Shown here: piece after piece, positions 40,011 to 41,351 of the stretch
Position numbering within the stretch: the first letter of the stretch is position 1
Layout of the letters: each line of letters begins with the position of its first letter
The notes under the pieces: generated by a model
What the model was told of the DNA's origin: nothing
Databases searched by the model: none
Seen by the model: only the letters and a program-made list of their open reading frames with translations
Made by a program: the position numbers and the translations under genes
Assembly (NCBI RefSeq): GCF_013167455.1
Contig: NZ_CP038328.1
DNA: 64,000 nt
DNA from: Escherichia coli O157:H7
GTDB lineage: Bacteria > Pseudomonadota > Gammaproteobacteria > Enterobacterales > Enterobacteriaceae
Strand: one strand, 5' to 3'

Positions 40011-41351
40011 ATGACGACACAATCCAGTCCTGTTATTACTGATATGAAAGTCATTCCGGTCGCCGGGTACGACAGCATGTTGCTTAATATTGGTGGGGCG
40101 CATAACGCATATTTCACTCGCAATATTGTGGTACTCACCGATAACGCCGGGCATACCGGCATTGGTGAAGCGCCAGGCGGAGAGGTGATTTATCAGACAT
40201 TGGTCGATGCTATTCCGATGGTGCTGGGCTAGGAAGTTGCGCGCCTGAATAAAGTGGTTCAGCAGGTGCATAAAGGTAATCAAGCAGCCGATTTTGATAC
40301 CTTCGGTAAAGGGGCCTGGACCTTTGAATTGCGCGTTAACGCCGTGGCGGCGCTGGAAGCCGCCTTGCTTGACCTGCTAGGTAAGGCGCTGAATGTTCCG
40401 GTCTGCGAACTGTTAGGGCCAGGCAAGCAACGCGATGCTATTACCGTCCTCGGTTATCTTTTTTATATCGGTGATCGGACCAAAACCGATCTTCCTTATC
40501 TGGAAAATACGCCGGGCAACCATGAGTGGTATCAGTTGCGCCATCAGAAAGCGATGAACAGCGAAGCCGTTGTGCGTCTGGCGGAAGCCTCACAGGATCG
40601 CTACGGCTTTAAAGATTTCAAACTTAAGGGCGGCGTGTTACCTGGCGAGCAAGAAATCGACACTGTTCGTGCATTGAAGAAACGCTTCCCGGATGCGCGG
40701 ATTACCGTTGATCCCAACGGTGCATGGCTGCTTGATGAAGCCATTTCTCTGTGCAAAGGGCTGAATGATGTTCTTACCTATGCCGAAGATCCATGCGGCG
40801 CAGAACAGGGCTTCTCCGGACGTGAAGTGATGGCGGAGTTTCGGCGGGCGACCGGCTTGCCCGTCGCGACTAATATGATCGCCACCAACTGGCGCGAAAT
40901 GGGTCATGCGGTGATGCTCAATGCGGTAGATATTCCACTTGCCGATCCGCACTTCTGGACGCTTTCCGGTGCAGTCCGAGTGGCGCAGCTTTGCGACGAC
41001 TGGGGGCTGACCTGGGGCTGCCATTCCAACAACCATTTCGATATCTCTCTGGCGATGTTTACCCATGTGGGCGCGGCGGCACCGGGTAATCCTACCGCTA
41101 TCGATACCCACTGGATTTGGCAGGAGGGCGATTGTCGCCTGACCCAAAATCCGCTGGAGATTAAAAACGGAAAAATTGCCGTTCCTGATGCGCCCGGTCT
41201 GGGCGTGGAACTGGACTGGGAACAGGTACAAAAGGCACATGAGGCCTATAAACGTCTGCCTGGCGGTGCGCGTAACGACGCAGGCCCGATGCAGTACCTG
41301 ATCCCCGGCTGGACCTTTGACCGTAAACGTCCCGTTTTCGGCCGTCATTGA
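40011..41351 (+). pseudogene. gudX: Glucarate dehydratase-related protein GudX, interrupted by an in-frame TAG at 40230-40232 (codon 74)
   Basis: ORF-track entries 40011..40232 (73 aa) and 40254..41351 (365 aa) are in the same frame and together read as enolase-superfamily GudX; GTGCTGGGC TAG GAAGTTGCG; the intact protein I recall has Gln here. Confidence 0.75.

What the first reader, a model, noticed from the sequence alone, without database searches (positions are those of the whole stretch)
40230..40232. In-frame TAG interrupting gudX
The two GudX ORF fragments are in one frame, separated only by TAG in GTGCTGGGC TAG GAAGTTGCG. The simplest explanation is a CAG to TAG nonsense mutation, leaving a 73-aa stub unless an internal GTG restart or amber suppression occurs. 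gudX is a paralog of gudD with no clearly assigned role, so loss would be tolerated.
Basis: partly seen in the sequence, partly recalled or inferred. Interest (0 to 1): 0.5.

Follow-up and report, generated by a model that had tools for sequence, protein, structure and literature searches.

The report
Lineage-fixed amber stop in O157:H7 gudX
The in-frame TAG is a real, inherited nonsense mutation (Gln74 to stop) that turned gudX into a pseudogene in the common ancestor of non-sorbitol-fermenting E. coli O157:H7; reference genomes already annotate it, so it is an ordinary finding.

Summary
gudX (window 40011-41351, + strand) has TAG at codon 74 (40230-40232) in an otherwise open 446-codon frame. 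K-12, O55:H7, the sorbitol-fermenting O157:H- strain 493/89 and LSU61 have CAG (Gln) there, so the change is one C>T transition.

It is not a sequencing error. Exactly 296 of 5,426 complete E. coli genomes carry the T, among them Sakai, EDL933, EC4115 and the beta-glucuronidase-positive PV15-279. RefSeq and PGAP already mark gudX as a pseudogene ("internal stop"; Sakai ECs_3648). The 12 closest relatives with CAG are the ancestral stages, so the mutation arose once on the A3-to-A5 branch of the O157:H7 stepwise model. No revertants and no independent recurrence were found.

The mutated base is the inner cytosine of a Dcm site (CCAGG became CTAGG), the classic 5-methylcytosine deamination hotspot for amber mutations.

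Rescue is unlikely. Sakai's glnV and glnX keep the CTG anticodon. The nearest in-frame GTG (codon 82) has no Shine-Dalgarno pairing. The 73-residue stub ends inside the N-terminal capping domain and lacks the whole catalytic barrel.

gudP and gudD are intact. Elsewhere in E. coli gudX is strongly constrained (dN/dS 0.02-0.07), so the loss is specific to this lineage. Low interest; already known.

The parts
40230..40232 (+). Amber stop codon TAG at gudX codon 74 (ancestral CAG, Gln74)
   Evidence: sequence and translation. Searches show C at 40230 in K-12, CB9615, 493/89 and LSU61.
40229..40233 (+). CTAGG, a former Dcm site (ancestral CCAGG). The mutated base 40230 is the inner cytosine that Dcm methylates.
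   Evidence: ancestral TGCTGGGCCAGGAAG versus window TGCTGGGCTAGGAAG. It is one of 14 Dcm target positions among 729 G/C positions in gudX. dcm and vsr are intact in a TAG-carrying genome.
40011..41351 (+). gudX pseudogene (glucarate dehydratase-related protein, GlucDRP; Sakai ECs_3648)
   Evidence: Annotated 'internal stop' pseudogene. PDB 4IL0/4GYP match. Pfam MR_MLE_N at residues 39-136 and MR_MLE_C at 187-404.
40011..40229 (+). Translated 5' stub of 73 codons. It ends inside the N-terminal capping domain and keeps only His31 of the substrate and catalytic residues.
40233..41351 (+). Untranslated remainder of gudX (1,119 nt, still an open frame). It contains the candidate restart codons GTG 40254 and GTG 40266 and encodes the whole catalytic barrel.
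   Evidence: ORF 40254..41351. (SD energies -0.1 and -3.0 kcal/mol). (residues K204, K206, D234, E265, N288, D312 and H338 all lie downstream).
38657..40009 (+). gudP, the intact upstream transporter gene of the operon
41372..42712 (+). gudD, the intact glucarate dehydratase gene 20 nt downstream of the gudX stop, with its own SD (AAGGA)
   Evidence: NCBIfam TIGR03247 score 898.7, above the 828.7 cutoff. No nonsynonymous and 27 synonymous differences from K-12.
40460..40460 (+). Private synonymous SNP (CTG>CTT, Leu150) that post-dates the stop and marks a small O157:H7 subclade
   Evidence: shared only with ECP19-598, 17B6-2, G5295 and FRIK1989. Every other genome compared has G.

Best explanation
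gudX in this window is a pseudogene made by one C>T transition that changed Gln74 (CAG) to amber (TAG). The window comes from E. coli O157:H7. The mutation happened once, after the O157 lineage split from the sorbitol-fermenting O157:H- clone (493/89) and the LSU61-like intermediate, and before the beta-glucuronidase-positive (A5) and typical (A6) O157:H7 lineages diverged. It has been inherited clonally ever since. The most likely molecular cause is deamination of 5-methylcytosine at the inner C of a Dcm site (CCAGG to CTAGG) that escaped Vsr repair (inferred). The expected consequence is that translation stops after 73 residues, inside the N-terminal capping domain, so no GudX with a catalytic barrel is made (inferred). 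gudP and gudD stay intact. gudD has its own ribosome-binding site, but it may suffer some transcriptional polarity across 1.1 kb of untranslated gudX RNA (inferred, not measured). Fixation is most simply explained by hitchhiking during the clonal emergence of O157:H7, not by selection for the loss.
For: Sequence and frame. Ancestral CAG. Distribution: 296 genomes with the exact TAG 63-mer, and the same 296 with a T-specific 33-mer, including EDL933, EC4115, SS52, Xuzhou21 and DEC4E. Twelve genomes carry the otherwise identical CAG allele: the O55:H7 strains, 493/89, LSU61, 2013C-4465 and FDAARGOS_946; 296+12 = all 308 hits at >=99% identity. PV15-279 carries TAG and is a beta-glucuronidase-positive CC A5 strain (PMC6256406). 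Pseudogene annotation. Single origin: no TAG with K-12-type flanks. Dcm context. dcm and vsr intact in the lineage. No supE. Weak restart signals. No sigma70-like promoter between the TAG and gudD. Domain position of the stop. No sign of secondary decay: the sampled ranks through the O157 group (about 1, 92, 184 and 276) are full length and at most 1 nt from the window.
Against: No protein, transcript or phenotype data were available. Absence of GudX, the degree of polarity on gudD, and any effect on growth on glucarate are therefore inferred. Only the supE-type suppressor was tested directly; other amber suppressors, including prophage-borne tRNAs, were not scanned genome-wide. The Dcm-hotspot origin rests on sequence context alone: if mutation rates were uniform, 3 of the 41 transition-to-stop positions in gudX would be Dcm targets (7%), and no independent recurrence was seen. 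Low-level natural readthrough of UAG cannot be excluded.
Confidence: 0.93

Rival explanations
1. The TAG is a sequencing or assembly error in this one genome, and the true base is C.
For: None beyond the general prior that a single-base stop can be an error.
Against: The T is present in 296 independently sequenced complete genomes from many laboratories and platforms, and reference annotations flag it as an internal stop. The C/T split follows the known phylogeny exactly.
Confidence: 0.003
2. Full-length GudX is still made because the amber codon is read through, by a suppressor tRNA or by efficient natural or programmed readthrough, so the gene stays functional.
For: The downstream frame is still fully open, and no secondary lesions were seen in the genomes examined or sampled. 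A near-cognate tRNA-Gln (CUG) would restore the wild-type residue (general knowledge).
Against: Sakai glnV and glnX keep the CTG anticodon. None of the 60 supE44-carrying genomes listed is labelled O157 (155 in total, 95 not seen). The window contains only three tRNA-Met genes. A recoding site should be conserved in orthologs, but more than 5,100 genomes have a sense codon here. The lack of decay is expected anyway in such a young, low-diversity clone: only 3 SNPs in about 45 kb against Sakai.
Confidence: 0.03
3. Translation restarts at GTG codon 82 (40254) or codon 86 (40266), giving an N-terminally truncated GudX of about 365 residues that keeps some function.
For: Two in-frame GTG codons lie 21 and 33 nt after the stop. 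Terminating ribosomes can reinitiate nearby (general knowledge). All barrel catalytic residues lie downstream.
Against: Anti-SD pairing upstream of these codons is -0.1 and -3.0 kcal/mol. The background mean within gudX is -2.6, and the real starts give -4.8 to -6.9. The product would lack residues 1-81, including His31 (equivalent to the GudD substrate ligand His32) and about half of the MR_MLE_N capping domain at residues 39-136, so correct folding and activity are unlikely.
Confidence: 0.03
4. The loss of GudX was selected, not neutral. Removing GudX from a GudD/GudX complex, or lowering gudD expression by polarity, changed glucarate catabolism in a way that helped the emerging non-sorbitol-fermenting O157:H7 clone.
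For: The allele is fixed with no revertants in 296 genomes. It arose on the same branch as the loss of sorbitol fermentation. gudX is strongly constrained elsewhere (dN/dS 0.02-0.065), so its loss is not obviously neutral. GudX and GudD chains occur together in PDB entry 4GYP.
Against: Fixation without reversion is the default outcome for any mutation on the stem of a young clonal lineage. No recurrent gudX amber was seen in other lineages. No phenotype or expression data were found.
Confidence: 0.12

Closest known systems
E. coli K-12 GudX (b2788, formerly YgcY; glucarate dehydratase-related protein, GlucDRP; PDB 4IL0 and 4GYP)
   Same: Same locus (gudP-gudX-gudD next to barA) and same length. 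There are 34 nucleotide differences from K-12, and apart from the stop codon only 5 codons change the amino acid. All catalytic and metal-binding positions of GudD are conserved.
   Different: The O157:H7 copy has TAG in place of CAG at codon 74 and is annotated as a pseudogene.
Amber hotspots at Dcm sites (CCAGG to CTAGG), as classically described for lacI (Coulondre and Miller; recalled from memory, not retrieved here)
   Same: The same pentanucleotide, the same base (the inner C), the same C>T transition and the same outcome, CAG (Gln) to TAG. dcm and vsr are present in the lineage.
   Different: This is a single natural fixation event, not a measured mutational spectrum. Methylation of this particular site was not shown, and no recurrence was seen in other lineages.
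Lineage-marking loss-of-function mutations of the O157:H7 stepwise model, such as loss of sorbitol fermentation and of beta-glucuronidase activity
   Same: A small inactivating change in a catabolic gene, fixed on a defined branch of the O55:H7-to-O157:H7 series and absent from the earlier stages.
   Different: No phenotype is known for it. I found no paper linking gudX or ygcY with O157. It maps to the A3-to-A5 branch, not the A5-to-A6 branch where beta-glucuronidase activity was lost.
GudD (glucarate dehydratase, b2787), the adjacent paralog
   Same: 63% identical over 446 residues with the same two-domain enolase-superfamily architecture.
   Different: GudD passes the NCBIfam glucarate dehydratase equivalog cutoff (898.7 against 828.7). 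Reverted GudX does not (746.3). GudD is intact here and has no amino-acid differences from K-12.

Membership tests
GudX / GlucDRP (enolase superfamily, glucarate dehydratase subgroup) | Near-identity to the experimentally solved E. coli GlucDRP | tested here: met
   4IL0 matches over residues 1-446 at E=0 and 1038 bits, with only a handful of substitutions in the printed alignment.
GudX / GlucDRP (enolase superfamily, glucarate dehydratase subgroup) | MR_MLE N-terminal capping domain plus C-terminal barrel domain | tested here: met
   PF02746 at residues 39-136 and PF13378 at 187-404 in the reverted protein.
GudX / GlucDRP (enolase superfamily, glucarate dehydratase subgroup) | Conserved KxK motif, metal ligands (Asp, Glu, Asn) and His-Asp dyad | tested here: met
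   K204, K206, D234, E265, N288, D312 and H338 align with GudD K205, K207, D235, E266, N289, D313 and H339. The GudD residue list was recalled from memory.
GudX / GlucDRP (enolase superfamily, glucarate dehydratase subgroup) | Position between gudP and gudD | tested here: met
Bona fide glucarate dehydratase (NCBIfam TIGR03247 equivalog) | Whole-protein score at or above the curated cutoff of 828.7 bits | tested here: not met
   reverted GudX scores 746.3 bits; GudD in the same window scores 898.7.
Pseudogene by nonsense mutation | In-frame stop where orthologs have a sense codon, with the intact allele in the sister lineages | tested here: met
   CAG in K-12, O55:H7, 493/89 and LSU61.
Pseudogene by nonsense mutation | Reproducible in independent assemblies, so not an artefact | tested here: met
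   296 complete genomes.
Pseudogene by nonsense mutation | No cognate suppressor tRNA in the genome | tested here: inconclusive
   The supE type is excluded in Sakai, and the window holds no suppressor. Other amber suppressors were not scanned genome-wide.
Pseudogene by nonsense mutation | Full-length protein absent | not testable with these tools
   Needs proteomics or a western blot.
Dcm (5-methylcytosine) deamination hotspot mutation | C>T at the inner C of CCWGG | tested here: met
   CCAGG became CTAGG at 40229-40233.
Dcm (5-methylcytosine) deamination hotspot mutation | Functional dcm in the lineage | tested here: met
   full-length dcm and vsr annotated as intact in TAG-carrying strain 2017C-4109. 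Also present in LSU61.
Dcm (5-methylcytosine) deamination hotspot mutation | Recurrence of the same change in independent lineages | tested here: not met
   every T allele found has O157-type flanks (296 genomes), and none has K-12-type flanks. Other flank haplotypes were not queried.
Dcm (5-methylcytosine) deamination hotspot mutation | The site is methylated in vivo in the ancestor | not testable with these tools
   Needs SMRT or bisulfite methylome data from O55:H7 or 493/89.
Programmed stop-codon recoding or readthrough | The stop codon is conserved among orthologs | tested here: not met
   the T was found only in 296 O157:H7-lineage genomes. K-12, O55:H7, 493/89, LSU61, NMBU-W13E19 and A_5 all have a sense codon.

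The most novel reading that the evidence does not exclude
The Gln74 amber is not neutral. It removes GudX from a GudD/GudX hetero-oligomer and/or lowers gudD expression through Rho-dependent polarity. That would retune glucarate catabolism in non-sorbitol-fermenting O157:H7 and would have contributed, alongside the loss of sorbitol use on the same branch, to its metabolic niche shift.
Probability: 0.07. Interest if true: 0.4.

Novelty: already known. Interest (0 to 1): 0.12.

Why it matters
It matters little on its own. The pseudogene is already flagged in the Sakai reference and by PGAP in every O157:H7 genome I looked at.

This analysis adds three modest points. First, the stop is a clean single-origin marker: T at this site separates non-sorbitol-fermenting O157:H7 (stages A5 and A6) from O55:H7, sorbitol-fermenting O157:H- and LSU61. 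Second, its sequence context fits a Dcm-site deamination. Third, gudX is strongly constrained in the rest of E. coli, so O157:H7 is a natural knockout. That could help assign a role to GudX, whose function is still unclear although it appears together with GudD in a PDB entry.

Tried and rejected
**Literature.** 'gudX'+'O157' and 'ygcY'+'O157' returned no papers. 'gudX' alone returned mostly irrelevant papers. 'gudD'+'O157' gave a false hit on the author name 'Guddat'. The saccharic-acid phenotype-array data in PMC2700278 turned out to be for MG1655, not O157. PMC2907692 mentions only the gar genes in EDL933. The O55:H7-versus-O157:H7 comparison (PMC2806823) does not name this gene in its main text. 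Monterrubio 2000 and Durso 2004 are not held. 'Glucarate dehydratase-related protein' returned nothing. I therefore found no phenotype or expression evidence for the gud operon in O157:H7.

**Sequencing error.** Rejected.

**supE suppression.** Rejected for Sakai.

**Restart at GTG82 or GTG86.** Judged unlikely from the SD energies. A TTG at codon 107 has an SD-like AAGGGG, but it sits about 14 nt upstream, which is too far.

**Internal promoter for gudD.** The consensus scan found none between the stop and gudD. This is weak evidence.

**Rho utilisation signal.** Only one 80-nt window (40433-40512) has C>G with G at or below 20%, so polarity can be neither predicted nor excluded.

**Independent recurrence of the amber.** Not found with K-12-type flanks.

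**Window-versus-Sakai comparison.** My first ungapped comparison was thrown off by a 1-bp homopolymer indel near 59261. One search resolved it.

Full report
**Observation.** The window reads ...GTGCTGGGC TAG GAAGTTGCG... with TAG at 40230-40232. The ORF list shows 40011..40232 (ATG, 73 codons) and 40254..41351 (GTG, 365 codons) in the same frame. Translating 40011-41351 gives a 446-codon product with one internal stop at codon 74. The frame is open from 40233 onward; the ORF tool simply starts its listing at the first GTG. With the stop reverted to Gln, the protein matches the solved E. coli 'glucarate dehydratase-related protein' (PDB 4IL0, 4GYP) end to end at E=0. It has the enolase-superfamily architecture MR_MLE_N (residues 39-136) plus MR_MLE_C (187-404). 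The gene lies between gudP and gudD, next to barA.

**What the window is.** The 1,341-nt gene is 100% identical to four E. coli O157:H7 genomes and differs by 1 nt from the other O157:H7 genomes listed. Over all 64,000 bases the window differs from strain ECP19-598 at two positions. Over about 45 kb it differs from Sakai at three synonymous positions.

**Ancestral state and reality of the stop.** K-12 MG1655 has CAG (Gln) at codon 74, so the change is a single C>T at 40230. The stop is not an error in this assembly:
- PGAP annotates gudX as a pseudogene with an 'internal stop' in ECP19-598, PV15-279, 86-24, 2017C-4109 and CDC#03-98.
- The curated Sakai reference lists gudX (ECs_3648) as a pseudogene.
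- A 63-nt query finds the exact TAG-bearing sequence in 296 of 5,426 complete E. coli genomes.
- A 33-nt query centred on the T, which can seed a megablast hit only if the T is present, finds the same 296. An evenly spaced sample of them includes EDL933, EC4115, SS52, Xuzhou21 and DEC4E.

**Dating the mutation.** I searched with a 440-nt 'reverted' (CAG) version of the sequence. Exactly 12 genomes matched at 100%: eight labelled O55:H7 (CB9615, RM12579, USDA5905, DEC5A, DEC5B, DEC5D, DEC5E, TB182A), 2013C-4465, FDAARGOS_946, the sorbitol-fermenting O157:H- clone 493/89, and LSU61. The 296 and the 12 together make up all 308 genomes in the >=99% identity class, so there are no revertants among TAG-lineage genomes.

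PV15-279 carries the TAG. It is a beta-glucuronidase-positive O157:H7, which is clonal complex A5 of the stepwise model. In that model A4 (SF O157:H-) and A5 both derive from the hypothetical A3, and A6 (typical O157:H7) derives from A5 (PMC6256406). LSU-61 is regarded as an intermediate (PMC7175801). The mutation therefore arose once on the A3-to-A5 branch, the branch on which sorbitol fermentation was lost.

Over the 6,440 bases compared (part of truC to the start of barA), 493/89 differs from strain 86-24 at only two positions: this C>T and a truC change at 37745 (Ile258 to Arg). PV15-279 still has the ancestral truC base. The order of events is therefore gudX Q74* first, then truC I258R on the A5-to-A6 branch, then the synonymous 40460 G>T in this window's small subclade.

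**Likely mutational mechanism (inferred).** The ancestral sequence GGGC-C-AGGAA contains CCAGG at 40229-40233, which is a Dcm site. The mutated base is its inner cytosine, the one Dcm methylates, giving CTAGG. Deamination of 5-methylcytosine produces exactly this transition, and CCAGG to CTAGG is the textbook source of amber hotspots (my recollection of the lacI work; not retrieved here).

In gudX only 14 of 729 G/C positions are Dcm targets (1.9%). Only 3 of the 41 positions where a transition creates a stop are Dcm targets (7%). dcm and vsr are present at >=80% coverage in 5,358 of 5,426 genomes, and both are annotated as intact in TAG-carrying strain 2017C-4109. This sub-claim rests on context only. 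I saw no independent recurrence of the same amber with K-12-type flanks.

**Consequences.** The stop lies inside the N-terminal capping domain and upstream of the entire barrel. GudX otherwise conserves every GudD catalytic, metal-binding and substrate position I checked (K204, K206, D234, E265, N288, D312, H338 and others). Only His31 lies within the 73-residue stub (the GudD residue list is from memory).

Rescue routes look poor:
- *Suppression.* Sakai's glnV and glnX have the wild-type CTG anticodon, both by annotation and by ARAGORN. The exact supE44 tRNA sequence occurs in 155 genomes; none of the 60 listed is labelled O157, and nearly all are recognizable K-12 laboratory derivatives. The window holds only three tRNA-Met genes. 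Other amber suppressors were not scanned genome-wide.
- *Restart.* The nearest in-frame GTG codons (82 and 86) have anti-Shine-Dalgarno pairing of -0.1 and -3.0 kcal/mol. The real gudX, gudD and gudP starts give -4.8, -5.3 and -6.9, and the background mean within gudX is -2.6. Any such product would lack residues 1-81.

gudD starts 20 nt after the gudX stop and has its own AAGGA, so its translation should be independent. Transcriptional polarity over the 1,119 untranslated nucleotides is plausible but unmeasured. The consensus scan found no sigma70-like promoter between the stop and gudD. Only one clearly C-rich, G-poor 80-nt window exists.

**Is gudX dispensable?** Not in E. coli generally. 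The gene is present at >=80% coverage in 5,407 of 5,426 genomes. Its dN/dS is 0.065 against K-12 and 0.021-0.026 in comparisons with another lineage. GudX and GudD chains occur together in PDB entry 4GYP. By NCBIfam, GudD passes the glucarate dehydratase equivalog cutoff (898.7 against 828.7 bits) and GudX does not (746.3), which fits a related but distinct role.

In O157:H7 the flanking genes are untouched. GudD has no amino-acid differences even from K-12. The pseudogene shows no sign of secondary decay: the sampled ranks through the O157 group (about 1, 92, 184 and 276) are still full length and at most 1 nt from the window. Given how little this clone has diverged, that says nothing about whether the gene still functions.

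**Comparison with what is known, and verdict.** This is K-12 gudX (b2788, ygcY) carrying a nonsense mutation. It belongs with the other lineage-marking loss-of-function changes of the O157:H7 stepwise model. Public reference genomes already annotate it, so its novelty class is 'already known'. I found no paper discussing it, and no phenotype or expression data for the gud operon in O157:H7.

The one refinement is that gudX is a constrained gene elsewhere, so this is a lineage-specific loss and not the decay of a redundant paralog. The most novel reading not excluded is that the loss was adaptive, through GudD/GudX complex composition or through polarity on gudD. I give that about 7%. Interest is low.

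Noticed in passing
window 37745 (truC codon 258): Nonsynonymous SNP. The window, 86-24 and ECP19-598 have AGA (Arg). O55:H7 CB9615, 493/89, LSU61 and the A5 strain PV15-279 have ATA (Ile). It appears to mark the A5-to-A6 step, after the gudX stop.
   Followed up: partly
window 40460 (gudX codon 150): Synonymous CTG>CTT change inside the pseudogene, shared only with ECP19-598, 17B6-2, G5295 and FRIK1989 among the complete genomes. It marks a small subclade.
   Followed up: partly
window 39618 (gudP codon 321) and 58359 (within queE): These are the only two differences from strain ECP19-598 across all 64 kb. At 39618 the window has TCG (Ser) and ECP19-598 has TTG (Leu), which matches that strain's distinct GudP protein accession.
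   Followed up: partly
window 58942-59030 and 59481-59618 (between queE and ygcE): Short, degenerate type I-E CRISPR repeats (GAGTTCCCCGCGCCAGCGGGGATAAACC): two good copies 61 nt apart, plus three decayed copies. I take these to be the known ygcE-queE 'CRISPR2' remnants of E. coli, an identification from memory. The records viewed annotate nothing here.
   Followed up: partly
window 59254-59260: A T7 homopolymer in the window is T8 in Sakai. It lies in the AT-rich stretch between the two CRISPR remnants and is the only indel against Sakai in the roughly 49 kb compared.
   Followed up: yes
window 57156-57776 (- strand, lemA): Annotation discrepancy with no sequence difference. PGAP calls an intact 206-aa LemA family protein in ECP19-598; in the window that ORF begins with a non-ATG codon (translated as Ile). 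Sakai annotates lemA (ECs_3634) as a 495-bp pseudogene.
   Followed up: partly
window 36242-36601 (+), 17856-18061 (-), 14798-14840 (+), 13074-13370 (-): Known RNA genes, all as expected for this E. coli region: CsrB sRNA (382.6 bits), GcvB sRNA (199 bits), ES036/CssrF sRNA (46.5 bits), and three tandem tRNA-Met genes.
   Followed up: no
window 40638-41348 (- strand): A 236-codon ATG-initiated ORF antisense to the 3' part of gudX. There is no evidence that it is a gene, and long antisense ORFs are common in GC-rich coding DNA.
   Followed up: no
window 41372-42712 (gudD): gudD has 27 synonymous and no nonsynonymous differences from K-12. That is far tighter constraint than on its neighbour gudX, which has 6 nonsynonymous differences.
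   Followed up: partly
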